A DNA stretch of 64,000 nt from an uncultured Candidatus Saccharibacteria bacterium (lineage in GTDB: Bacteria > Patescibacteriota > Minisyncoccia > Phycocordibacterales > UBA9973): contig CAYZYV010000003.1 of the NCBI GenBank assembly GCA_964482735.1, positions 63,097 to 127,096 on the forward strand. The letters run 5' to 3'. Shown here piece by piece: positions 10,653 to 57,779 of the stretch. The notes below the pieces were generated by a model, which had not been told where the DNA came from, ran no database searches, and was given only the letters and a program-made list of their open reading frames with translations. Position numbers and translations under genes: made by a program. Numbering within the stretch: position 1 is the first letter of the stretch; every line of letters begins with the position of its first letter.

Positions 10653-12611
10653 TTAAACTAACTGATAATCTATAGTTTTTCTGTTTTGATCAGTATTTTT
10701 TACTGAGAATTTAATCTTGTCTCCAAGTGTGTATTTTCTATGAGTTCTTTTGCCTATTATACTCATTCCTTTTTTATCGAACACGAAAAAATCAGCTCCC
10801 AATTCTCGAATAGGAATCATGCCTTCGCATCTCGATTCTTTTTCTTCAACGTACAAACCCCATTCGGTGACTCCAGTAATAGTTCCTTCAAACTTTTGTC
10901 CTATACGGCTAGACATATATTCTACCTGCTTATACTTAATAGAATTTCTTTCAGCTTCTTGGGCTTCTTTTTCACGTGCTGAAGATTGTAAACTAATCTT
11001 TTCATATTCTTGCCACTTTTCTTTTGGAATAGATCTCTTTTCTAAGGCTTCAAGTAACAATCTGTGGACTACGACATCCGGATATCTTCTAATAGGGGAT
11101 GTGAAGTGTGTGTAATGTTTAAAACCGAGACCAAAATGCCCGATGTTTTTTGTAGAGTAAATTGCTTTAGACATCGTACGTATTATGGCCGTGTTGACTG
11201 TATCTTTAATAGGACTATTTTCTAGAAGGCTGGCAAGTCTATTTATTTCTTGGGAAGTAATCAATCCGTCTTTAAGATTTATTTTGTAACCAAGTTTTTT
11301 TAAGAAAGAAACAAGGTCTTGAACTTTTTCTTTATTTGGTAAATCGTGAATTCTGTATAAAAACACGCCTGCCTCTTTTTTCATTTTCTTAGAAATAAAT
11401 TCTGCAACCTCTCGGTTAGCCAAAAGCATTAATTCTTCTATCATCTTATTGGAATCTCCTCTTTCTTTGACGTAGACAGAAATAGGCAAGCCTTTATCAT
11501 CTAAAACGAATCTAACCTCATCTTGTTCTAGCGAAATAGCCCCCTCCTCGAATCTTTTTTTGTGTAATTTCTTAGCAATCTGATTTAAGACAACCAACTC
11601 TTCACTAAATTCTCCATTCTTACTTTTGATTACTTCTTCGGCTTCTTCATACGTAAATCTTTTGTCTGAATGAATAATGGTTTTACCAAACCATCTTTTA
11701 ATTACAATTCCATTTTTATCCATTTCAAATAGGGCAGAGAAGGCCAATCTGTCTTCTCCTGGTTTCAAACTACAAATATCGTTTGATAATTCTTCTGGAA
11801 GCATTGGTATGGTTCTATCTACTAAGTAAACAGAGGTTCCTCTTTCTCTAGCTTCTTTATCAAGTACTCCTCCTTTTGTAACAAAATGAGAAACATCTGC
11901 GATGTGAACTCCAATTTCAAAATGACCATTTGGAAGTTTGCTAAAAGAAATAGCATCATCGAAATCTTTTGCATCTACTGGGTCTATTGTGACGGTTGTA
12001 ACACTTCTTAAATCTTTTCTCTTGCTAAGTTCCTTTTCGTTAATTTCTATTTTTGCGACTTTCTTAGCCTCATTAGAAACTATATCTGGAAAGTTATTAT
12101 CAAAACCTTTTTCTAGTGCAATAGCTTGCATCTCAGCTTCATTTTCAAAAGGTTTACCTAGCACCTTTTTAATTTCCCCAACAGGTGGTCGTTCACTATT
12201 TTTCCAATTAGTAATAACTCCAAACACTTTCTGTCCAACGGTAGCCCCGTTTAGCTTATCCTTAGGAATAACTATGTCGACGTAAGTTTTTGTGTCGCTT
12301 GGATTAAGGTAGAAAATCCCATTTTCTTCTTCGAGTATACCGGCATGACCCTTTTTTGCTCTTGATACAATTTCTATAACTTCACCGCTTTGATTTGATT
12401 CAGGTTTTTTAGGGTGCAACAAAACCATTACAGTATCACCATTTAGGGCTGTTCCTAAAAATTCTCTAGCTATCTCTATAATTTCATCAGATTCAGGTAT
12501 TCTGATTATCCCTTCTTTTTTATGAGTTATTATAATGTTACCAAGAAGGGTATTTTTACTGTCTTTTTTTTCTTGTTTTTTCACTTTATGAGTATAACAT
12601 ACAACTTGCAA
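10653..12611 (-). CDS. rnr: Ribonuclease R / RNase II family exoribonuclease
   Basis: RNB catalytic motif TIDPVDAKDFDDAISF, N-terminal cold-shock-like region, C-terminal S1 domain. Exact start is uncertain; the 5' end abuts the divergent rpsP start. Confidence 0.85.
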   Translation of the reverse strand: MQVVCYTHKVKKQEKKDSKNTLLGNIIITHKKEGIIRIPESDEIIEIAREFLGTALNGDTVMVLLHPKKPESNQSGEVIEIVSRAKKGHAGILEEENGIFYLNPSDTKTYVDIVIPKDKLNGATVGQKVFGVITNWKNSERPPVGEIKKVLGKPFENEAEMQAIALEKGFDNNFPDIVSNEAKKVAKIEINEKELSKRKDLRSVTTVTIDPVDAKDFDDAISFSKLPNGHFEIGVHIADVSHFVTKGGVLDKEARERGTSVYLVDRTIPMLPEELSNDICSLKPGEDRLAFSALFEMDKNGIVIKRWFGKTIIHSDKRFTYEEAEEVIKSKNGEFSEELVVLNQIAKKLHKKRFEEGAISLEQDEVRFVLDDKGLPISVYVKERGDSNKMIEELMLLANREVAEFISKKMKKEAGVFLYRIHDLPNKEKVQDLVSFLKKLGYKINLKDGLITSQEINRLASLLENSPIKDTVNTAIIRTMSKAIYSTKNIGHFGLGFKHYTHFTSPIRRYPDVVVHRLLLEALEKRSIPKEKWQEYEKISLQSSAREKEAQEAERNSIKYKQVEYMSSRIGQKFEGTITGVTEWGLYVEEKESRCEGMIPIRELGADFFVFDKKGMSIIGKRTHRKYTLGDKIKFSVKNTDQNRKTIDYQLV

Positions 12612-27930: not shown

Positions 27931-27939
27931 ATGTATAGT

Positions 27940-28163
27940 CGCCTTAGAGACTCGAACGTGAGGAAGCCTCTTCGCTTTAGTTATGCTTTGACATAACCTA
28001 TATGTTTAATAATGAACTGCTTAACAGGCTTAAACAGAGAAGCCCTTCACTTTAGTTATGCTTTGACATAACCTATATACTTGTTATTGAGCCGCTTCAG
28101 AGACTCGAAGGTGAGGAAGCACTTCGCTTTAGTTATGCTTTGACATAACCTATATTTTTTTAC
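27940..28163 (-). repeat. Three tandem ~75-bp direct repeats. Each is a ~37-nt copy of the tRNA-Thr 3' half (T-arm plus acceptor 3' strand) joined to a conserved hairpin gttatg-ctttga-cataac
   Basis: The units begin at 27940, 28013 and 28088. The motif cgctttagttatgctttgacataacctata recurs with period 75/77/72 and continues in register into the intact tRNA. Confidence 0.8.
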
Positions 28164-28238
28164 TGAGCCGCTTCTCAGACTCGAACTGAGGACCTTCGCT
28201 TTACAAAAGCGTTGCTCTACCAACTGAGCTAAAGCGGC
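28164..28238 (-). tRNA. tRNA-Thr (anticodon UGU)
   Basis: Cloverleaf folded by hand: acceptor gccgctt/aagcggc, D-arm agctcagttggtagagc, anticodon loop tt-tgt-aa, T-arm ctcag-ttcgagt-ctgag, discriminator U then CA. Confidence 0.85.
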
Positions 28239-48911: not shown

Positions 48912-48931
48912 ACATAATAAAAAATAGAAAG

Positions 48932-48961
48932 AGCCGGCAATTAGCCGGCTTTATTATTTTT
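48932..48961 (+). terminator. Intrinsic terminator
   Basis: agccggcaattagccggct followed by ttattattttt. Confidence 0.65.
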
Positions 48962-48984
48962 GTAGTCAGGGATATTTTGCTCGT

Positions 48985-49125
48985 CGCCACTCGCAAAATT
49001 CCACGACCCTGGCTCGTGATTTTGCTTGCTAGCAAAATTATCACTCCGCCTTCCACAGCTAAAAAACAGCATGCAGATGCTGTTTTTCTTAACGCTTGTG
49101 GACCCTACAGGAGTCTCTCCTTCGA
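48985..49125 (-). repeat. Partial direct copy (unit 1) of the tRNA-Ala 3' end, its trailer, a terminator hairpin and ~100 nt of flank
   Basis: tttcttaacgcttgtggaccctacagga is identical at 49095-49122 and 49353-49380. The flanks ccttccacagctaaaa / ctttccacaagctaaaa are similar. The hairpin sequence differs but stays self-complementary. Confidence 0.75.
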
Positions 49126-49366
49126 CTAAAACCTTTTCGTCAAAAAGTTTTGTCTAGGCACCAGCTCGTCTGTTTTTTGAGACAGTTATGGAATGCTTTG
49201 CATGCTAAAACCATGTGTGTCACAAGTCACTAAATATTTTGCTCCAGGTATTCGCAAAATATGTAAGTGCTCGCGACCCCAGCTCGGCAATTTTTCTGCT
49301 GAAAAATTATGCCTGTGCTTTCCACAAGCTAAAAGCCTCCAGCAGTGGAGGCTTTCTTAACGCTTG

Positions 49367-49439
49367 TGGACCCTACAGGACTCGAACCTGCCACCCCCTC
49401 ATTGCAAATGAGGTGCTCTACCAGATGAGCTAAGGGCCC
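49367..49439 (-). tRNA. tRNA-Ala (anticodon UGC) with G3:U70
   Basis: gggccct/agggtcc acceptor with the G3-U70 identity pair, anticodon stem cctca/tgagg, loop tt-tgc-aa, T-loop ttcgagt. Confidence 0.85.
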
Positions 49440-49610: not shown

Positions 49611-50978
49611 ATGCCATTAAACAAAGGAAATAAAATACAAACCGTTAAGTATTCTCCTCCTCCTCCAAATCTTCCAATGCTTGGGAAGGTAGATCCTAGC
49701 CAAGCTGTTTTTATTGGAAGAACAAATTATGTAGCAGCCTTGGAAGAAAAGAGGTTTGTTTTTGGTATTAATCAAAACGATAGAAGACGTCATGTTTATA
49801 TTGTAGGTAAATCTGGGGTAGGTAAATCAAAATTAGAAGAAGTAATGATTCGTCAGGATATTGCTTATGGCAGAGGTGTATGTGTTATCGATCCGTACGG
49901 AGAATTAGTAGAAGAGATATTAAATTTTATTCCTAAAAATAGAGTAAATGATGTTTGTATCTTTAATCCTGAAGATGTTAATTTTCCTGCATCCTTTAAT
50001 CCATTTTCAAGGGTAGAACCGACATTCAGACACCAATTTACTCAAAGTATCGTAGAAATTTTACAGAAACAATTTGGAAATGATTGGAGTCCTAGAATAG
50101 AGCATGTGATTCGTTTTTCAGTATTAGCTTTGCTTGATTGTGAAAATTCAAACATGCGAGGGATGATTCGTATTTTGATTGATAAAAAATATCGAGAAAA
50201 GGTTATAGATAATATAAAAGACGACATGGTTCGTCATTTCTGGAAAGAAGAGTTTGAAGAGTGGTCTAAGAAGTTTGATTCTGAAGTAATAATTCCTATC
50301 GTGAACAAGTTGTGGCAATTTCTTTCTAACCCGATGCTTACCAACATATTTGGTCAAAAGGAAAACAAAATAGATTTTGAAAAAATAATGAATAATAAAA
50401 AAATTATTCTTGTTAACTTAGCTAAGGATAAAATCGGAGATGAAAATGCTTCATTCTTGGGTGCCTTGTTTATGACAAAAATTAGACAAGCAGGTATGTC
50501 TCGAGCAAAGTTGAATCCTTCAGAAAAGAATGATTTTTATCTTTATATTGATGAATTTAATAATATAATAACTGATGGTTTTGAAAACATTTTATCTGAG
50601 TCTAGAAAATATGGAATTAATTTAACTATTGCCCATCAATATATCGGTCAATTGTCTCAAAAAATAGAACAAGCAGTTTTAGGTAATATAGGAACTATAA
50701 TTTTGTTTAGGGTTGGGGGAGACGATGCTACCAAGTTGCGATCTGAATTCGCTCCTATTTTTGATGTTAAAGATATGATTAATTTAGGAACAGGAGAGTT
50801 TTACATTAAGATGATAATAAATGGTGAAAGTTATGACCCATTTTCATCAGAAACCTTAGAAGTTTTACCGACACCACACACATCTTTTAGAGAAGAAGTT
50901 TTAGGTTCTTCTAGAAGATTCTATGCTACCACAGAAGAAAACGCTTCTAAAATTATGGCTGAAGATGAATCTTCTTAA
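49611..50978 (+). CDS. Soluble FtsK/HerA-superfamily P-loop ATPase resembling T4SS coupling-protein (VirD4/TraG/TrwB) DNA-binding ATPase domains; paralogue 1
   Basis: Walker A VYIVGKSGVGKS, Walker B LYIDEFNNI, arginine finger and sensor SESRKYGINLTIAHQY. No TM segments. Confidence 0.55.
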   Translation: MPLNKGNKIQTVKYSPPPPNLPMLGKVDPSQAVFIGRTNYVAALEEKRFVFGINQNDRRRHVYIVGKSGVGKSKLEEVMIRQDIAYGRGVCVIDPYGELVEEILNFIPKNRVNDVCIFNPEDVNFPASFNPFSRVEPTFRHQFTQSIVEILQKQFGNDWSPRIEHVIRFSVLALLDCENSNMRGMIRILIDKKYREKVIDNIKDDMVRHFWKEEFEEWSKKFDSEVIIPIVNKLWQFLSNPMLTNIFGQKENKIDFEKIMNNKKIILVNLAKDKIGDENASFLGALFMTKIRQAGMSRAKLNPSEKNDFYLYIDEFNNIITDGFENILSESRKYGINLTIAHQYIGQLSQKIEQAVLGNIGTIILFRVGGDDATKLRSEFAPIFDVKDMINLGTGEFYIKMIINGESYDPFSSETLEVLPTPHTSFREEVLGSSRRFYATTEENASKIMAEDESS

Positions 50979-51026
50979 AATAAAGCTTTTTAGTTTGTTT
51001 TAAATAAGGTATAATAAAAGTAATTT

Positions 51027-53111
51027 ATGGATAACGAAATTCCTAATAATAAAGATATCACTTATTTTGCGAAGACTAATTTTCGTAATACAAATACTGT
51101 TTTTGGAATAAAAAGAAAAGATCGTCGTCAGCACATGTATGTCCTCGGTAAATCTGGTACCGGTAAATCTGTTTTGTTGCATAATTTAATAACTCAAAAC
51201 ATTAAAAATGGAGAGGGCGTTTGTGTAATAGATCCTCACGGAGAACTTGCTGAAGAAATACTAGAATTGATACCAGAAAATCGCATAAAAGATGTTATTT
51301 ATTTTAACCCGGCAGATCCTGATTTTCATATAGGTTTTAACGTTCTACAGATTGATGACCCTAAGCTTAAGCACTTAGTTGCTTCTGGTATTATGGGTAT
51401 TTTTACTAAAATTTGGGCAAATGCTTGGAGCTCTCGTATGGAGTACATTTTAAACAATGCTATTTTGGCCCTCTTAGATACGCCAGGAACTACACTTTTG
51501 GGGATACCTCGTCTTTTAGTCGATAAAGAGTATCGTCAAATGATTATAGGCAATCTAAAAGATCCAATTGTTAAATCTTTTTGGTTGCACGAATACGAGG
51601 AATGGAGAGACCAATTTAGAAATGAAGCGATTGCCCCTATTCAAAATAAAGTTGGACAATTTTTGTCTACTTCTATCATTAGAAATGTGGTTGGTCAATC
51701 AAAATCAACAATTGATATCTTCAAAATAATGAACGAAGGTAAAATCTTTATTGTTAATGTTTCAAAAGGAAGAATAGGGGAAGATAACTCAGCTTTGCTT
51801 GGAGGTATGATTATTACCAAGCTTCAATTGGCAGCTATGGAGAGAGTTCGTATTCCTGAAAACGAGAGAAGAGATTTCTATCTTTATGTTGATGAATTTC
51901 AGAACTTTGCTACTGAATCTTTTGCCAACATTCTTTCTGAAGCGAGAAAGTATCGTTTAAATTTAATTATTGCTCACCAATATATAGCTCAAATAGCAAA
52001 CTCTGAAGGTTCCAAAGTTTCTGATGCAGTTTTTGGTAACGTTGGAACAATGATTATTTTTAGAGTAGGAGCAGAAGATGCCCAGTTTTTGGAAAAAGAA
52101 TTTGAACCAGAATTTACAGCTCAAGACTTGGTTAGCTTACCAAATTACAATATCTATTTGAAATTAATGGTAGATGGTGTAACTAGTCGTCCTTTTTCAG
52201 CAATAACTTTACCACCAATGGTTTCTGTTGATCCTGACAATGATACTAAAGAAAGAATCATAGAGTCCTCAAGGGTCTTGTATGCACGATCACGAACCGA
52301 AGTAGAATCAGAGATAACCAAATGGAGTACCACTCTTCAGACAAACGAAGGTGAAGCTAAATATAAAGTAGAGTGTACAAACTGTAAAAAGCAAACTACT
52401 GTTCCTTTTGAACCAAAGGAAGGAAAACCCGTTTACTGCAAGGAGTGTTTAATAAAAATAAAAAGCGGGGAGTTAAAACCAGAAAAAGGATTTTTTGTAC
52501 CAAAGACCAACAATCAAGAAAATAAAGAAGCTGTAGCTTCTCTCGCTTCTTTAGGTATAGAATTCAAATCAGATATTAATCATAATAACAGAGATAATTT
52601 TTCTAGAAGACAAGAACAAAAAACAAACCCAGATCACAATCAACCAAAAAATAGTCATTCTTTTAATCCAAAAGAAAATCCAAGAAATAATAATGATTTT
52701 GAAAGAAGAAAAAGTTCTGGGCCATCACCACTTCTTCGTGGTTTGTTGGAAAAAATAAAATCAGGACAAGTTTCAGAGATAAAAGAAGAAAAAATAGATC
52801 TAGTAGAAGAGAAAGTAAAAACACCTGAACCTGTTTCTTTAGCTACTCTTAAATCAGATAATCCTAGCGATAAAAACACAATGATTTCAACTAAAGAAAT
52901 TTCAGATGCTCATTTATCGACCTTGAAAGACGCTTTAAGTAAAATCACAGACAAGCAAAACTCATTTGATAACTCAAAAAAAGAGCCAATTCAAAATAAT
53001 ACTGAAGTAAAGGCCGAAGATAATCAAAACGACACCTCTGCCCCTTCGTGGCAAAACAAAAAAACTGTCAAAGAAGTCCCCGAAGAAGTATTGAGAAAAG
53101 TTCTAGAATAA
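51027..53111 (+). CDS. Paralogue 2 of the same ATPase family, with a C-terminal CxxC...CxxC zinc ribbon and a ~230-aa low-complexity (N/K/E-rich) tail
   Basis: MYVLGKSGTGKS, LYVDEFQNF, SEARKYRLNLIIAHQY; ECTNCKKQ...CKEC. Confidence 0.55.
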   Translation: MDNEIPNNKDITYFAKTNFRNTNTVFGIKRKDRRQHMYVLGKSGTGKSVLLHNLITQNIKNGEGVCVIDPHGELAEEILELIPENRIKDVIYFNPADPDFHIGFNVLQIDDPKLKHLVASGIMGIFTKIWANAWSSRMEYILNNAILALLDTPGTTLLGIPRLLVDKEYRQMIIGNLKDPIVKSFWLHEYEEWRDQFRNEAIAPIQNKVGQFLSTSIIRNVVGQSKSTIDIFKIMNEGKIFIVNVSKGRIGEDNSALLGGMIITKLQLAAMERVRIPENERRDFYLYVDEFQNFATESFANILSEARKYRLNLIIAHQYIAQIANSEGSKVSDAVFGNVGTMIIFRVGAEDAQFLEKEFEPEFTAQDLVSLPNYNIYLKLMVDGVTSRPFSAITLPPMVSVDPDNDTKERIIESSRVLYARSRTEVESEITKWSTTLQTNEGEAKYKVECTNCKKQTTVPFEPKEGKPVYCKECLIKIKSGELKPEKGFFVPKTNNQENKEAVASLASLGIEFKSDINHNNRDNFSRRQEQKTNPDHNQPKNSHSFNPKENPRNNNDFERRKSSGPSPLLRGLLEKIKSGQVSEIKEEKIDLVEEKVKTPEPVSLATLKSDNPSDKNTMISTKEISDAHLSTLKDALSKITDKQNSFDNSKKEPIQNNTEVKAEDNQNDTSAPSWQNKKTVKEVPEEVLRKVLE

Positions 53112-54721: not shown

Positions 54722-55309
54722 TTATTTATGCTCAATTTTTTCTAAGGCCACTTTTATTTTCTTAAAATCTTTAATCAATGTTTCTCTCATCCCGCCATTG
54801 TATAAAGCGGCTGCTGGATGGTATAAAGGCATGAAAGCTTGTTTACCAAATTCATCTGTGTTTTTTATCAAAAGCTTTCCGTGTATTTCAGATATTTTTT
54901 CAGTAGGGAAGAAACGTGTCATAGAATGTCTTCCTAAAAACACTATTAATTTTGGAGAAATAATTTTAATTTCATTAATTAGCCACTCGTTGCACAATTC
55001 CTTTTCTTCAGGTAGTGGATCGCGGTTATTAGGCGGTCTGTATTTAACTATGTTTGTGATATAAATATCTTCTCTTTTTAATCCTATACTATTAAGCATT
55101 TCAGCTAGGAATTTACCAGCTGCTCCAACAAATGGGACACCTTGTTCATCTTCACTTTTTCCAGGTGCTTCTCCTATAAAGATAATCTGACTATCTGGAT
55201 TTCCTTTGCCAAAAACAGCCCTTGTTGCAGTTTTTCTAAGCTCACATTTACAATTCTCTTGCCAGTACTTATTTAATTCATCCAGTCTCTCTTTTTTTGA
55301 CATAACCAC
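54722..55309 (-). CDS. Uracil-DNA glycosylase, family 4
   Basis: IFIGEAPGKSEDEQGVPFVGAAGKFL motif and an N-terminal Cys cluster. Confidence 0.8.
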   Translation of the reverse strand: MVMSKKERLDELNKYWQENCKCELRKTATRAVFGKGNPDSQIIFIGEAPGKSEDEQGVPFVGAAGKFLAEMLNSIGLKREDIYITNIVKYRPPNNRDPLPEEKELCNEWLINEIKIISPKLIVFLGRHSMTRFFPTEKISEIHGKLLIKNTDEFGKQAFMPLYHPAAALYNGGMRETLIKDFKKIKVALEKIEHK

Positions 55310-55332
55310 ATTGTAACAAAAAATTAAGAATA

Positions 55333-55590
55333 TTGTATAATACCAATATGAAGAAAAACAAAATTATCGAATTAGTGGGGTGGTATGGTGTTGTTGCCAT
55401 CTTGGCAGCCTATATGCTATTGAGTTTTGGATTTATTGCTTCTAACAGTTTAATATACCAAATTTTAAATGGAACAGGAGCTTTGGGAATTGTTTTTGAT
55501 GCCCTAAAAGACAAAAATTATCAGCCTGCTGTGTTGAATACAATCTGGGCACTAGTTGCTATTTTTGCCTTATTTAAAATTTTAATCTAA
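55333..55590 (+). CDS. Hypothetical small two-TM membrane protein
   Basis: Two hydrophobic helices; no recognisable domain. Confidence 0.4.
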   Translation: MYNTNMKKNKIIELVGWYGVVAILAAYMLLSFGFIASNSLIYQILNGTGALGIVFDALKDKNYQPAVLNTIWALVAIFALFKILI

Positions 55591-55620
55591 AAAATAAACA
55601 GTCTAAACTGTTTGTTAATG

Positions 55621-55702
55621 TGCCGGAGAGAGGACTTGAACCTCCATCCCTTTCGAGACGCGATTTTGAGTCGCGCGCGTATACCAATTCCGCCACTCCG
55701 GC
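55621..55702 (-). tRNA. tRNA-Leu (anticodon CAA), type II with a long variable arm
   Basis: Acceptor gccggag/ctccggc, anticodon stem cgcga/tcgcg, loop ct-caa-aa, variable arm tctcgaaagggatg, T-loop ttcaagt. A terminator hairpin lies immediately 3' of it (55575-55620, minus strand). Confidence 0.85.
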
Positions 55703-55784
55703 ATGAGTAAGACTAGTATACCAAATTATCATAAAAAATCCAGGATATTGCATTTTTAACCATTTTATAGTAGTATAACCGTAT

Positions 55785-55943
55785 ATGTCACAAGATAGAC
55801 TTTTCAAATTAGCCTGTACTGAGTGCAAACGCATTAATTACTGGTCAAGCAAGAACAAAAAACTCGTCACTAAAAAGATTGAGCTTAATAAGTATTGCAA
55901 GTGGTGTAAGAAAAATACAAAACATAAAGAAGCTAAAAAATAA
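55785..55943 (+). CDS. rpmG: 50S ribosomal protein L33 (52 aa; below the ORF-track cutoff)
   Basis: Hand translation: [52 protein letters not shown]. CxxC...CxxC zinc ribbon typical of L33. Confidence 0.8.
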
Positions 55944-55970
55944 AACCCCAAATTGGGGTTTTATTTTTTT
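55942..55970 (+). terminator. Intrinsic terminator after rpmG
   Basis: aaaaccccaaattggggttttattttttt. Confidence 0.75.
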
Positions 55971-55981
55971 AGCTATTTTAC

Positions 55982-55998
55982 CTGCGGGCGATGGAGGA
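55982..55998 (-). repeat. 17-bp direct repeat of the tRNA-Trp 3' end (attR-like)
   Basis: ctgcgggcgatggagga is identical at 55982-55998 and 56768-56784. Confidence 0.8.
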
Positions 55999-56246
55999 CC
56001 GTGATTACACTTATCGCCTATTACATAGGCAGGTACTTTTCCACCTCTCTTCACTCGTACGGAAAAGTCTTTCGATTCCTCCACGCACATGAAGCAATTC
56101 ATGTGCTATCGCCCAATATTAAAAACAGCTTACGCTGTTTTTAATCTGCGGAGACACTCGTGTTAGAACCTTTCACTGACAAGCCCTGTAACGTTATTTC
56201 TAATAATTTTATTATATCAAATTGACGTACCTTGTGCGATCTTATT

Positions 56247-56735
56247 TTATTCAATAAAATTTAATATTTTTTCTGGAGACGAAACATTATTATCTACAAA
56301 ATCGTTAATTTTTTGCCAATCCTTAAACAAAAATTTGTTAGGATTTTGAGTTTCGATTTTTAGTGGAATTTCAATATAAGAATCTGCTTGTATTTCTCTA
56401 GGGACTATATAGTTACCTTTTTCTATATCCATATCTTTAGTATTTTCTAAAATTGAAGCATCATAATTTTTCAAATCAGCTAATGGTATTCTAATTGTAA
56501 TTATTGAACCATTTGTTGATCTTGTTTTAATGTAATTCTTTAAATCTTGTATATTATCAGTAAACCAATTTCCTATAATTTCTTTTTTTGAGACTACATT
56601 TTCACGTTTTTCATCATATTCAGTATTCGGGGTATCATAACGATATAAAGAAGTATACTCATTATTATGATAGAGTTGTTTTAATTTTTCTTTTCTTTCA
56701 AATTTATTATTTAACTGTAGGTTTTCTAATGACAT
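56247..56735 (-). CDS. Hypothetical protein (162 aa), the only ORF between tRNA-Trp and its downstream direct repeat
   Basis: No recognisable motifs; not hydrophobic. Confidence 0.4.
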   Translation of the reverse strand: MSLENLQLNNKFERKEKLKQLYHNNEYTSLYRYDTPNTEYDEKRENVVSKKEIIGNWFTDNIQDLKNYIKTRSTNGSIITIRIPLADLKNYDASILENTKDMDIEKGNYIVPREIQADSYIEIPLKIETQNPNKFLFKDWQKINDFVDNNVSSPEKILNFIE

Positions 56736-56768
56736 ATTAATTATCTAATATCTTGTGCTATCACGACT

Positions 56769-56841
56769 CTGCGGGCGATGGAGGAATCGAACCCCCGCCA
56801 AAAGTTTTGGAGACTTTTGTTCTACCACTAAACTAATCGCC
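56769..56841 (-). tRNA. tRNA-Trp (anticodon CCA)
   Basis: Acceptor gggcgat/atcgccc, anticodon stem aaagt/acttt, loop ct-cca-aa, T-loop ttcgatt, discriminator G then CA. Confidence 0.85.
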
Positions 56842-56867
56842 CTTGAATTGCAGTATACTATAAAAAT

Positions 56868-57779
56868 CTATTTTTTCAAAAAGGTTACAATTTCTTTCTC
56901 AGCTCTCTTCAAGTCTGTCTTTTTGGTGGGATTTATCCAGATAGTGTCTTTATCTCTCTTAAACCAAGTATTTTGTCTTTTTGCGAAATGCCATATTTGA
57001 GAAAACAGTTTTTCTACCATTTCTTCTTTACTGATTTTTCCTTGTAAATAAAAAGCTGAATATCTGTATTCGAGTCCAAAGGATTCCATTTTTTTCCAAG
57101 AAACCCCTTCTTTGTGTAGTCTTTCCATTTCTTTTAACATACCCATTTTAATCCTTCTAATGAGCCTTATATAAATTCTTTCTTTTAATTTTTCACTAGG
57201 GAAGCCCAGTCCAATTTTTATTATGTTAAAAGAACTTTCGCTGATACATGGTTTAGGAACTTTCCCAAGTATTTTTGCGATTTCAATAGCTCTAATGACT
57301 CTCACTCTGTTGTTCTTGTCGATGTTATGAGCTCTCTCCTTGTCGAGTTTTAATAGATATTTAAATAAATAATCCGTTGTCTTTGAATTAAGTTGTTCTC
57401 TTAGTTTTTTGTTAGGGGGAACTTCAGGGAATGACGTCCCGTTAATTATAGAGTCTATGTAATATCCTGTACCCCCACAAATTATTGGAATTTTTCCATT
57501 GCTTAAAATATCTTTTATTTTTTTACTAGCCAACTTTTGATAGTCACTAACAGAAAAAGTTTTATTTTTTGGCGAAATTATATCAAGTATATAGTGGGGA
57601 ATACCTCGCATTTCTTTTTTTGTTATTTTCCCAGTGCCTAAATCCATTCCTTTGTACACTTGCCTAGAATCCGCAGAGATAATCTCTCCATTAAACTTCT
57701 TAGCTACATCCACGGCAAAATCACTTTTGCCAGTGGCTGTTTGTCCAAGTATTATGATGATTTTTGGTTTCTTTTCCAT
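56868..57779 (-). CDS. miaA: tRNA dimethylallyltransferase
   Basis: P-loop GQTATGKSDFAVDVAKKFNGEIISADSRQVYKGMDLGTGK. Start set at MEKKPKIIII. Confidence 0.85.
   Translation of the reverse strand: MEKKPKIIIILGQTATGKSDFAVDVAKKFNGEIISADSRQVYKGMDLGTGKITKKEMRGIPHYILDIISPKNKTFSVSDYQKLASKKIKDILSNGKIPIICGGTGYYIDSIINGTSFPEVPPNKKLREQLNSKTTDYLFKYLLKLDKERAHNIDKNNRVRVIRAIEIAKILGKVPKPCISESSFNIIKIGLGFPSEKLKERIYIRLIRRIKMGMLKEMERLHKEGVSWKKMESFGLEYRYSAFYLQGKISKEEMVEKLFSQIWHFAKRQNTWFKRDKDTIWINPTKKTDLKRAEKEIVTFLKK

What the first reader, a model, noticed from the sequence alone, without database searches (positions are those of the whole stretch)
55982..56841. Mini-island at tRNA-Trp: 17-bp direct repeat of the tRNA 3' end 770 bp downstream, enclosing a single 162-aa ORF and tRNA-derived debris
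ctgcgggcgatggagga, the tRNA-Trp T-stem and acceptor 3' strand, occurs at 56768-56784 within the gene and again at 55982-55998, in the same orientation. This is the classic attL...attR geometry of an element integrated at a tRNA 3' end. The 770 bp between them hold one ORF (56247-56735) with no recognisable domain and no integrase. Further tRNA-Trp-like fragments sit in both orientations (e.g. ttcgattcctcca at 56075-56087). It looks like a decayed or miniature integrated element.
Basis: seen in the sequence. Interest (0 to 1): 0.55.

Follow-up and report, generated by a model that had tools for sequence, protein, structure and literature searches.

The report
Gene cassette and hairpin behind tRNA-Trp
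Behind a tRNA-Trp gene of an uncultured Paceibacteria (CPR) bacterium lie two separate add-ons: a mobile one-gene cassette found letter-for-letter behind other tRNA genes, and an older conserved hairpin element built from a copy of the tRNA's own tail, a kind of element that trails many tRNA genes in this group and matches no Rfam family.

Summary
It does not bound a single decayed element. There are two layers.

(1) A 628-bp cassette (56146-56774) carries ORF162. It sits between tRNA-Trp and its terminator and is flanked by CCGCAG. The same DNA lies in four other contexts at 100, 98.6, 97.6 and 89% identity, two of them directly behind tRNA-Ser genes. It is cleanly absent from the syntenic relative L137. 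It has no recombinase of its own. In L162, a variant of its 3' end module lies next to a serine recombinase gene.

(2) A 133-nt hairpin, "unit B" (55982-56114), has the distal 17-mer as its 3' arm and the "inverted debris" as its 5' arm. Homologous units follow tRNA-Trp, Leu, Tyr and Ala genes in many Paceibacteria. Their arms match the local tRNA, their stems covary strongly, and they are more conserved than miaA. No Rfam family matches.

ORF162 belongs to an unannotated family that also occurs inside polyvalent proteins. Its predicted fold is weakly ADP-ribosyltransferase-like.

Best reading: a tRNA-anchored insertion hotspot with non-autonomous modules. Whether the hairpin works as DNA or as RNA is unresolved.

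The parts
56771..56842 (-). tRNA-Trp (anticodon CCA). No CCA is encoded; the discriminator G is followed by the trailer CAG.
   Evidence: ARAGORN; Rfam tRNA 69.6 bits
56852..56879 (-). Promoter-like site TTGAAA-16-TATACT upstream of tRNA-Trp. It is the likely driver of a tRNA + ORF162 co-transcript (inferred).
   Evidence: Consensus scan, 10 of 12 matches. No terminator lies between the tRNA and ORF162.
56769..56785 (.). Proximal copy of the 17-mer (tRNA T-stem 3' strand, acceptor 3' strand, discriminator and CAG). Its first 6 bases, CTGCGG (56769-56774), are also the left flanking repeat of the cassette.
56146..56774 (-). Mobile ORF162 cassette. 628 bp are shared with other contexts, including CCGCAG at both ends. 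Relative to L137 the net insertion is about 56143-56769.
   Evidence: 100% identity to L004, 98.6% to L015, 97.6% to L014 and 89% to L013, with unrelated flanks. Absent from syntenic L137.
56247..56735 (-). ORF162 (162 aa, 22-26% G+C). Member of an unannotated family; the predicted fold is weakly ADP-ribosyltransferase-like.
56750..56770 (-). Cassette 5' end, AGAGTCGTGATAGCACAAGAT. It forms the right half of a 32-bp imperfect dyad when it abuts a cassette-end module.
   Evidence: Sequence comparison of junctions
56146..56246 (-). Cassette 3' end module. It holds the GCACAAGG box (56229-56241), the extended -10 TTTGATATAAT (56211-56221) and a degenerate partial tRNA 3' end, GGTTCTAACACGAGTGTCTCCGCAG, that ends at 56146.
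   Evidence: The module is conserved on a different cassette in L258 and next to a serine recombinase gene in L162.
56121..56142 (.). Bidirectional terminator-type hairpin AAAAACAGC-GTAA-GCTGTTTTT. In L137 the equivalent hairpin directly follows tRNA-Trp.
55982..56114 (-). 'Unit B', a 133-nt structured tRNA-trailing element. It has a closing helix, an inserted hairpin (P2) and three internal hairpins.
   Evidence: Fold z-scores -4.4 and -6.1. G+C is 41-44% against 33% for the window. 13 homologues give 91.4% paired cells and 17 pairs with changes on both sides; 0 of 500 shuffles reach this.
56069..56114 (-). 5' arm of unit B: GGGCGAT (56108-56114), hairpin P2 (56085-56107), and GGAGGAATCGAA, which is antisense to the tRNA T-stem 3' strand and T-loop.
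55982..55998 (.). 3' arm of unit B, which is the distal copy of the 17-mer.
55785..55969 (+). rpmG (L33, 55785-55943), convergent with the tRNA, and its bidirectional terminator (55935-55969). This is the original downstream neighbour of tRNA-Trp in relatives with an empty site.
   Evidence: Pfam Ribosomal_L33 E=1.9e-16; terminator scan; empty sites in L140, L144 and L151

Best explanation
The tRNA-Trp/rpmG spacer of this Paceibacteria chromosome is a tRNA-anchored insertion hotspot. It holds two modules acquired independently, and neither carries a recombinase.

Module 1 is the recent one. It is a 628-bp one-gene cassette that entered exactly after the tRNA discriminator, at CCGCAG, between the tRNA and its terminator. 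The likely route is site-specific recombination inside the shared CCGCAG. The cassette ends in its own degenerate partial tRNA 3' end. Where that end abuts another cassette's start, the two together form a 32-bp imperfect dyad. I infer three further points. The cassette is moved in trans, and the lead candidate is the CPR large serine recombinase found beside the same end module in L162. ORF162 is transcribed from the tRNA promoter. Its product is a conflict-type effector: a stand-alone copy of a domain also found in polyvalent proteins, possibly an R-S-E ADP-ribosyltransferase.

Module 2 is older. Unit B is one member of a widespread family of 110-150-nt elements that trail tRNA genes in Paceibacteria. 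Each is a hairpin. Its 3' arm is a copy of the local tRNA from T-loop position 56 through the discriminator, often with trailer bases. Its 5' arm is the antisense of that copy. The arms enclose conserved hairpins. I read these units as folded attachment sites or landing pads of integrase-less mini-elements that insert at the tRNA 3' end. Their geometry is that of the single-stranded CTX-phi attP, with two inverted target-like sites about 90 nt apart next to one prophage end. Successive insertions push older units away from the tRNA. These units are retained under selection.

Shown: the two-layer anatomy, the cassette's mobility, and the conservation, covariation and tRNA linkage of the units. 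Inferred: the recombinase, the DNA-level role of the units, expression of the cassette, and the enzyme activity.
For: Cassette.
- Identical or near-identical DNA lies in five different flanking contexts from independent assemblies: tRNA-Trp here, a tRNA-Ser(act) in L004/L259/L260, tRNA-Ser(tga) in L013, a partial-tRNA-like end in L014, and a different cassette's end module in L258.
- The left flank is always ...CCGCA(G) and the right end is always ...CCGCA(G).
- The cassette is cleanly absent from L137, which is syntenic with the window over 12.9 kb.
- More distant ORF162 homologues also lie right after tRNA genes, with that tRNA's end repeated downstream: L012 after tRNA-Gln, and L011 after a tRNA 3' end at the contig start.
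- An end-module variant lies about 115 nt upstream of, and divergent from, a Resolvase-domain gene in L162. That recombinase family is very abundant in CPR.

Units.
- Covariance model R1 finds them 8-70 nt behind tRNA-Trp, Leu, Tyr and Ala genes. Most end in a 12-28-nt exact copy of that tRNA's 3' end, starting at C56.
- The identity runs past the helix into the trailer and even into the terminator: 28 nt at tRNA-Ala in the window and about 65 nt in L208. This is typical of att duplications.
- The most distal arm is followed by the ancestral flank, the rpmG terminator.
- Arrays vary in composition between relatives.
- Covariation is strong. In A5, 91.4% of cells pair against 44-54% when partners are slid, and 17 pairs change on both sides against 6 or fewer. 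In A3, 19 of 26 pairs have compensatory changes.
- Terminators flank unit B on both sides and no promoter was found for it.
- The CTX-phi precedent for inverted att copies is described in PMC4246890. Islands with partial tRNAs are described in 10.1101/2020.12.28.424599.
Against: - No recombinase lies in or near the island, and none was found among 25 window ORFs scanned.
- The recombinase link rests on one locus, L162, plus an inferred one, L258. The only further look-up of that recombinase family (P0173) landed on an unrelated contig and showed no cassette or module nearby, so the link was not reproduced.
- No free or circular form was found, and no unit or ORF162 relative occurs in viral contigs.
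- Unit B is inherited vertically and is about 10 points more conserved than miaA. A conserved type-A core occurs at different tRNAs. This is what a functional RNA gene would show and is odd for integration scars.
- The strand test (G-U against A-C cells, 54 against 29) is weak and does not separate RNA from single-stranded or double-stranded DNA.
Confidence: 0.5

Rival explanations
1. Unit B and its relatives are genes for a structured non-coding RNA. The closing helix mimics, or is antisense to, the acceptor and T arm of the neighbouring tRNA. Such an RNA could be cut by RNase P or RNase Z like a minihelix, or could act as a decoy or regulator of tRNA 3' end metabolism. On this view the 17-mer identity is kept by selection and not by recombination. 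ORF162 is an unrelated insertion.
For: - Covariation is strong in all helices.
- The units are more conserved than the flanking coding DNA, and their identity tracks species divergence.
- G+C is raised and fold z-scores are -4.4 to -6.1.
- The type-A core has highly conserved unpaired purines.
- The 5' arm changes together with the T-stem of the local tRNA, for example in L207, L208 and L176.
- G-U cells slightly outnumber A-C cells on the tRNA-sense strand.
Against: - There is no room for a promoter. The units sit between bidirectional terminators.
- Identity with the tRNA extends into trailer and terminator sequence that takes no part in the helix.
- The 5' arm pairs with the discriminator and trailer, not as a tRNA 5' strand would.
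- Copy number and unit type vary between relatives, and tandem arrays occur.
- No Rfam family matches.
- The strand bias is weak.
Confidence: 0.3
2. One reading: one decayed or miniature element, 55982-56785, integrated at the tRNA-Trp 3' end, with the two 17-mers as attL and attR and everything between them as its remnant.
For: The direct repeat of the tRNA 3' end is exact and not due to chance. ORF162 is accessory and the site is empty in relatives. The geometry would also fit a CTX-phi-like element consisting of cargo, terminator and folded att site.
Against: - The DNA shared with other contexts stops at 56146, not at 55982.
- The terminator plus unit B is present in L137 at 89% identity without the cassette.
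- In L004 and L015 the same cassette is followed by different units.
- Neither the cassette nor the unit looks decayed.
Confidence: 0.1
3. The repeats have no function and arose from local tandem duplication or replication slippage at the palindromic T arm. The cassette spread by homologous recombination between tRNA-like flanks and not by a dedicated recombinase.
For: Long duplications that include trailer and terminator, as in L208 and at tRNA-Ala in the window, could arise by slippage. No recombinase lies at the locus.
Against: - Slippage does not create an antisense arm. It also does not explain a conserved, covarying core shared by units at different tRNAs in different genera.
- The cassette's flanks share only 5-7 bp, too little for RecA-type exchange.
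Confidence: 0.07

Closest known systems
tRNA-targeting integrative elements and the islands they build (for example tycheposon islands of Prochlorococcus, 10.1101/2020.12.28.424599; cis-mobilisable elements, CIMEs, recalled from my own knowledge)
   Same: Insertion is at the 3' end of a tRNA gene and the gene is restored. Partial tRNA copies separate successive modules, with newer modules next to the tRNA. The cargo is of the conflict or defence type. Remnants without an integrase accumulate (one search compared).
   Different: No tyrosine integrase was seen in any island examined. The modules are tiny, 110-790 bp. Each partial tRNA is paired with an antisense copy to form a conserved, covarying hairpin, which is not described for those systems. 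The cassette itself shares only CCGCAG with its targets.
CTX-phi / IMEX integration through a folded single-stranded attP (PMC4246890)
   Same: Two target-like sites lie in inverted orientation roughly 90 nt apart. Folded, they rebuild the duplex target. After integration, the antisense copy, the spacer and the sense copy lie at one end of the insert and the target is regenerated at the other end. The element has no integrase of its own, integration is irreversible, and tandem arrays form.
   Different: The target here is a tRNA 3' end, not dif. No Xer involvement, ssDNA replicon or Rep gene was found. The spacer here is itself conserved and structured. The units are kept under selection in the chromosome.
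Integron gene cassettes with attC sites (see PMC4792948)
   Same: Single-ORF cassettes are found in different arrays. Each has a conserved site at its 3' end. Expression comes from an upstream promoter outside the cassette. In L162 a recombinase gene is divergent from the first site. The recombination sites are defined by structure.
   Different: There is no IntI and no GTTRRRY core. The candidate recombinase is a serine recombinase. The anchor is a tRNA gene. The end modules carry their own outward-facing -10 element.
Domains of polyvalent proteins of phages and conjugative elements, including ART-PolyVal (PF18760)
   Same: The ORF162 domain occurs inside 700-2263-aa multidomain proteins together with ART-PolyVal, zeta-toxin-like kinase and PD-(D/E)XK domains. 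Neighbouring cassettes carry ART-PolyVal genes, in L013 and L161.
   Different: ORF162 is not detectably similar in sequence to ART-PolyVal and matches no Pfam model.

Membership tests
tRNA-targeting integrative element (integrase type) | Direct repeat of the tRNA 3' end flanking the insert, with the tRNA gene intact | tested here: met
   17-mer at 56769-56785 and 55982-55998; the tRNA scores 69.6 bits
tRNA-targeting integrative element (integrase type) | Integrase gene inside the element | tested here: not met
   The only ORF is ORF162, with no Pfam hit. No integrase was found in the islands of L147, L161 or L013.
tRNA-targeting integrative element (integrase type) | Empty site in related genomes | tested here: met
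   L137 lacks the cassette. L140, L144 and L151 lack both the cassette and the unit.
tRNA-targeting integrative element (integrase type) | Excised or circular form with attP | tested here: inconclusive
   Short contigs show no terminal overlap. Nothing was found in viral contigs. Read-level data are not available.
Integron cassette / attC | IntI tyrosine integrase with attI and Pc next to the array | tested here: not met
   No IntI was seen. The only recombinase next to an end module is a Resolvase-domain protein in L162.
Integron cassette / attC | attC with R''/R' core sites (RYYYAAC / GTTRRRY) | tested here: not met
   Junctions read ...TCTCCGCA(G)|AGTCGTG....
Integron cassette / attC | Single-ORF cassettes that share a 3' recombination site and occur in different arrays | tested here: met
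   The ORF162 cassette lies in 5 contexts. The same end module is found on another cassette in L258 and L162.
IMEX / CTX-phi-type folded attP | Two inverted copies of the target-like site about 90 nt apart at one end of the insert | tested here: met
   The arms of unit B at 56069-56114 and 55982-55998 are separated by about 70 nt. The same layout holds in more than 25 units.
IMEX / CTX-phi-type folded attP | The target is dif and the reaction is catalysed by XerCD | tested here: not met
   The target is a tRNA 3' end. The enzyme is not testable with these tools.
MITE | Terminal inverted repeats | tested here: met
   12-20-bp arms
MITE | Many dispersed near-identical copies with a target-site duplication of fixed length | tested here: not met
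   In 941 kb, most strong hits lie behind tRNA genes and the remainder have none predicted nearby. Copies are diverged and carry compensatory changes. Repeat length varies from 12 to 65 nt.
Any Rfam 15 RNA family | Covariance-model match | tested here: not met
   Only the tRNAs matched, in window 55300-57100 (E up to 10) and in L004, L013, L014 and L015 (E up to 0.1).
R-S-E ADP-ribosyltransferase | ART fold | tested here: inconclusive
R-S-E ADP-ribosyltransferase | Conserved Arg, Ser and Glu on the expected elements | tested here: inconclusive
   R32 is invariant, and S49, D103 and E105 are at least 90% conserved in 32 sequences. S49 lies in a low-confidence loop.
R-S-E ADP-ribosyltransferase | Sequence-profile match to a known ART family | tested here: not met
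   Pfam, PDB profile search and hhalign against ART-PolyVal proteins are all negative.
IS200/IS605 (considered because of the element's size and single small ORF) | HUH/Y1 transposase | tested here: not met
   The ORF162 family has no conserved histidine.

The most novel reading that the evidence does not exclude
Paceibacteria have a tRNA-anchored, integron-like gene-capture system. Hairpin sites are built from a sense and an antisense copy of the tRNA 3' end and fold, in single-stranded DNA or in RNA, into a mimic of the tRNA gene's acceptor and T arm. These sites serve as attachment sites. Small promoterless cassettes such as ORF162 are inserted at the tRNA end by a recombinase acting in trans, possibly a large serine recombinase, and are expressed from the tRNA promoter.
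Probability: 0.2. Interest if true: 0.85.

Novelty: new variant of a known kind. Interest (0 to 1): 0.62.

Why it matters
CPR/Patescibacteria have tiny genomes, and how they gain and swap genes is poorly understood. This locus shows a concrete route. One-gene cassettes without a recombinase land exactly behind tRNA genes, where a strong promoter and a terminator are ready for use. The same locus also exposes a conserved and apparently undescribed class of structured elements. Their stems are copies of the neighbouring tRNA's tail.

If these hairpins are recombination sites, they would extend structure-specific, single-strand-type site recognition to tRNA targets. That type of recognition is known so far from integron attC sites and from CTX-phi. 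If instead they are RNAs, they are a new tRNA-linked RNA family. Either answer can be tested directly.

ORF162 adds an unannotated effector domain, shared with polyvalent proteins, to the list of conflict genes.

Tried and rejected
1. tmRNA, Y RNA, T-box, known ribozymes or any other Rfam family for the 55982-56240 region: only the tRNAs matched.
2. A second tRNA gene with an intron: ARAGORN and Rfam find nothing there, and no D arm or anticodon arm is present.
3. The metagenome scan with the 17-mer mostly returned chance hits in G+C-rich coding DNA. Only L027, L048 and L085 were relevant.
4. ORF162 as an IS200-type transposase: the family has no conserved His.
5. Naming ORF162 by sequence: Pfam, PHROGs, PADLOC, NCBIfam, a PDB profile search and hhalign against ART-PolyVal were all negative.
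6. Looking for free elements: two unit-core patterns gave 41 viral-contig hits, and none is a real unit by model R1. The end-module pattern gave 0 hits. The ORF162 family gave 0 relatives in viral contigs.
7. An integrase in the window: 25 ORFs scanned are housekeeping or pilus/T4SS-like, and none is a recombinase.
8. A supposed co-occurrence of the serine recombinase P0173 with the ORF162 homologue of L016 turned out to be two different contigs of equal length, 8460 bp.
9. The strand test by G-U against A-C counts is too weak to decide.
10. The afdb50 fold library was unavailable.
11. The literature searches that ran (one search failed on a syntax error) found no description of tRNA-trailing hairpin units in Patescibacteria.
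Full report
OBSERVATION. The 17-mer CTGCGGGCGATGGAGGA occurs exactly twice in the window, at 55982-55998 and 56769-56785. With up to 2 mismatches allowed, 100 shuffles gave no match. The proximal copy is the 3' end of tRNA-Trp(CCA), which lies at 56771-56842 on the minus strand: T-stem 3' strand, acceptor 3' strand, discriminator G and the trailer CAG. The only long ORF between the copies is 56247-56735 (162 aa, 'ORF162'), which has no Pfam hit. The inverted 13-mer TTCGATTCCTCCA is at 56071-56083.

ORGANISM AND SETTING. MiaA relatives place the window in Patescibacteria/Paceibacteria, among Nomurabacteria-like MAGs. The window is core chromosome: rpsB, tsf, mreB, rpoD, uvrC, ddl, trmD, rnc and miaA. 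No recombinase was found among 25 ORFs scanned. rpmG (55785-55943) is convergent with the tRNA and ends in a bidirectional terminator at 55935-55969.

LAYER 1, A MOBILE ONE-GENE CASSETTE. The exact ORF162 protein is encoded in two unrelated contexts in independent assemblies. One is the miaA/tRNA-Trp context of the window. The other is a pilM/pilO...dksA context, where the gene follows a tRNA-Ser.
- DNA alignment shows 100% identity from CCGCAG|AGTCGTG... to ...GTGTCTCCGCA, with unrelated flanks.
- By blastn, only window 56147-56774 is shared: L004 at 100%, L015 at 98.6%, L014 at 97.6% and L013 at 89%.
- The left flank is always a tRNA 3' end, or a tRNA-like end, finishing in CCGCAG. These are tRNA-Trp, tRNA-Ser(act), tRNA-Ser(tga) and the remnant ATGGCCCGCAG. 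In L258 the left flank is the end of another cassette.
- L137 is syntenic with the window over 12.9 kb at 74-80% identity. It lacks exactly window 56143-56769. There the tRNA is followed directly by the same terminator hairpin and the same downstream element.
- Homologues at 54-56% identity also lie right behind tRNA genes, with the tRNA end repeated after the gene: L012 after tRNA-Gln, and L011 after a tRNA 3' end at the contig start.
The cassette is therefore mobile, intact and non-autonomous.

The cassette's last 28 nt, GGTTCTAAC-ACGAG-TGTCTCC-G-CAG, have the spacing of a T-loop, a T-stem strand, an acceptor strand and a discriminator. This is a degenerate partial tRNA. The 100 nt after the stop codon form a module made of a GCACRAGG box, TGnTATAAT, about 55 nt of leader, and CCGCAG. 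A second module variant sits upstream of ORF162 in L258 and also occurs in L162. Where a module abuts a cassette start, the junction is a 32-bp imperfect dyad, CTAACACGAGTGT-CTCCGC-AGAGTCGTGATAG (read directly from the sequence). In L162 the module lies about 115 nt upstream of, and divergent from, a gene with a Resolvase N-terminal domain (E=5e-19). Relatives of that gene are large serine recombinases (Resolvase + Recombinase + Zn_ribbon_recom) and are very abundant in CPR. This is a lead from one locus, not a demonstration.

No terminator separates the tRNA from ORF162, and the tRNA has a good promoter at 56879-56852. I therefore infer co-transcription, ending at the hairpin 56121-56142.

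LAYER 2, THE DISTAL 17-MER BELONGS TO A CONSERVED HAIRPIN ELEMENT. On the tRNA-sense strand, 56114->55982 reads: GGGCGAU - hairpin - GGAGGAAUCGAA - three hairpins - CCUCCAUCGCCCGCAG. The distal 17-mer is the 3' strand of a closing helix. The region has 41-44% G+C against 33% for the window, and folds with z-scores of -4.4 and -6.1.

L027 has the same miaA/tRNA-Trp/rpmG locus without ORF162. It holds two such units in tandem, each ending in the 17-mer. Its distal unit is homologous to the window's unit and carries compensatory changes in three hairpins.

Of 67 Paceibacteria loci with tRNA-Trp near miaA, about 20 have one or more units behind the tRNA. Their 3' arm is a copy of the local tRNA end and their 5' arm is its antisense. 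Two core types exist.
- Type A alignment: 26 pairs, 19 with compensatory changes.
- Type B alignment, which includes the window: 91.4% of cells pair against 44-54% when partners are slid. 17 pairs change on both sides against 6 or fewer. 0 of 500 shuffles reach these values.
A covariance model of type A finds units 8-70 nt behind tRNA-Trp, Leu(caa), Tyr and Ala genes. Most end in a 12-28-nt exact copy of that tRNA starting at T-loop C56. No Rfam family matches.

Unit B identity tracks species divergence but runs about 10 points above miaA: 89.6 against 79% for L137, 83.9 against 72% for L027, and 81.6 against 68% for L147. The unit is inherited vertically under constraint. It is not debris.

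WHAT THE UNITS ARE. Several points favour a DNA-level origin by recombination.
- Identity with the tRNA runs on into trailer and terminator sequence outside the helix: CAG here, 28 nt at tRNA-Ala, and about 65 nt in L208.
- The 5' arm pairs with the discriminator and trailer.
- The most distal unit is followed by the ancestral flank, the rpmG terminator. Empty sites exist in L140, L144 and L151.
- Unit type and number vary between relatives, and larger cargo islands lie between the tRNA and a distal unit in L147 and L161.
- The units lie between bidirectional terminators, with no room for a promoter.
The layout of antisense copy, spacer and sense copy at the far end of an insert, with a regenerated target at the near end, is what CTX-phi leaves after its folded single-stranded attP recombines with dif (PMC4246890). 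Serial accumulation of partial tRNAs is known from tycheposon islands.

Other points favour an RNA gene: the strong conservation, the conserved unpaired purines of the type-A core, and a slight excess of G-U over A-C cells on the sense strand (54 against 29). That excess is too weak to decide. No free form was found. I put the recombination-site or landing-pad reading at about 0.4-0.5 and the RNA reading at about 0.3.

VERDICT. It is wrong in treating the region as one decayed element and the inverted fragments as debris. The locus is a new variant of the known tRNA-anchored island theme, with two unusual features. One is a recombinase-less single-gene cassette that recurs behind different tRNAs. 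The other is a conserved family of hairpin elements, matching no Rfam family, built from the tRNA's own 3' end.

Noticed in passing
window 48931-49380 (minus strand): tRNA-Ala(tgc), at 49366-49439, is followed by a terminator hairpin and a long type-A unit (R1 hit 49198-49331). Next comes a 28-nt exact copy of the tRNA-Ala 3' end plus a 12-nt trailer (49085-49112; the original is at 49353-49380). Then follow a second hairpin and a second type-A unit (48931-49066).
   Followed up: partly
window 27935-28160 (minus strand): tRNA-Thr(tgt), at 28165-28238, is followed by three tandem units of about 75 nt of a third, short type (TATAGGTTATGTCAAAGCATAACTAAAG...). The first and third end in a copy of the tRNA-Thr T-loop and 3' end. 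tRNA-Leu(caa), at 55620-55702, has only a terminator.
   Followed up: partly
L004:5878-5965 (also L005, L007, L259, L260): The tRNA in front of the cassette in the second context is a Ser-type tRNA with the unusual anticodon ACT (A34), scoring 56.3 bits in Rfam. It lies head-to-head with a normal tRNA-Ser(gct). The unit behind the cassette (L004:6639-6777) copies the 3' end of tRNA-Ser(gct), which is on the opposite strand, and not the 3' end of the tRNA directly upstream.
   Followed up: no
L162:12155-12865: A large-serine-recombinase gene (Resolvase domain, starting at 12386) is divergent from a cassette-end module that ends in ...TCTCCGCA. Small ORFs without Pfam hits follow. The layout is integron-like, but with a serine recombinase. 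More than 1400 related recombinases exist, mostly on short CPR contigs.
   Followed up: partly
L208:2930-3215: In L208 the direct repeat that flanks the unit is about 65 nt long. It covers the tRNA-Trp 3' end, the trailer and the whole terminator hairpin.
   Followed up: no
L147:6892-9717: The segment from tRNA-Trp through a 2.6-kb island to unit B is inverted relative to miaA and rpmG when compared with the window. The island encodes a 449-aa protein with no Pfam domain.
   Followed up: no
L161:10551-12183; L013:777-2374: Other cargo in tRNA-proximal islands of relatives includes ART-PolyVal-like proteins, a Ham1/ITPase, a methyltransferase and an LMW phosphatase. In L011 the cargo is MazG-like, an SLFN-type helicase with an S24 peptidase domain, and RelB/YafQ. 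This is conflict or defence-type content.
   Followed up: partly
L012:4990-5003, L011:95-111, L013:760-778: Several cassettes have TGnTATAAT only 6-7 nt before the ATG, which suggests leaderless mRNAs. The window's cassette-end module has TTTGATATAAT (56211-56221) pointing towards the CCGCAG junction and the terminator. This would give a short transcript of about 85 nt.
   Followed up: no
L177:7560-8420: Two inverted copies of about 120 bp (...TTCTTGAATTAGTGCGAACCCATTTCGCCGCCGCAGGCGGCGAGAACTCCCCGCG...) flank a small segment next to a Resolvase-domain gene. This may be an invertible or inserted segment.
   Followed up: no
window 49611-53111: Two adjacent TraG/VirD4/HerA-like ATPase genes (TrwB_AAD_bind, DUF87, TraG-D_C) lie next to an LTD-domain protein and close to the tRNA arrays. 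They could be DNA-translocation machinery relevant to uptake of single-stranded DNA.
   Followed up: no
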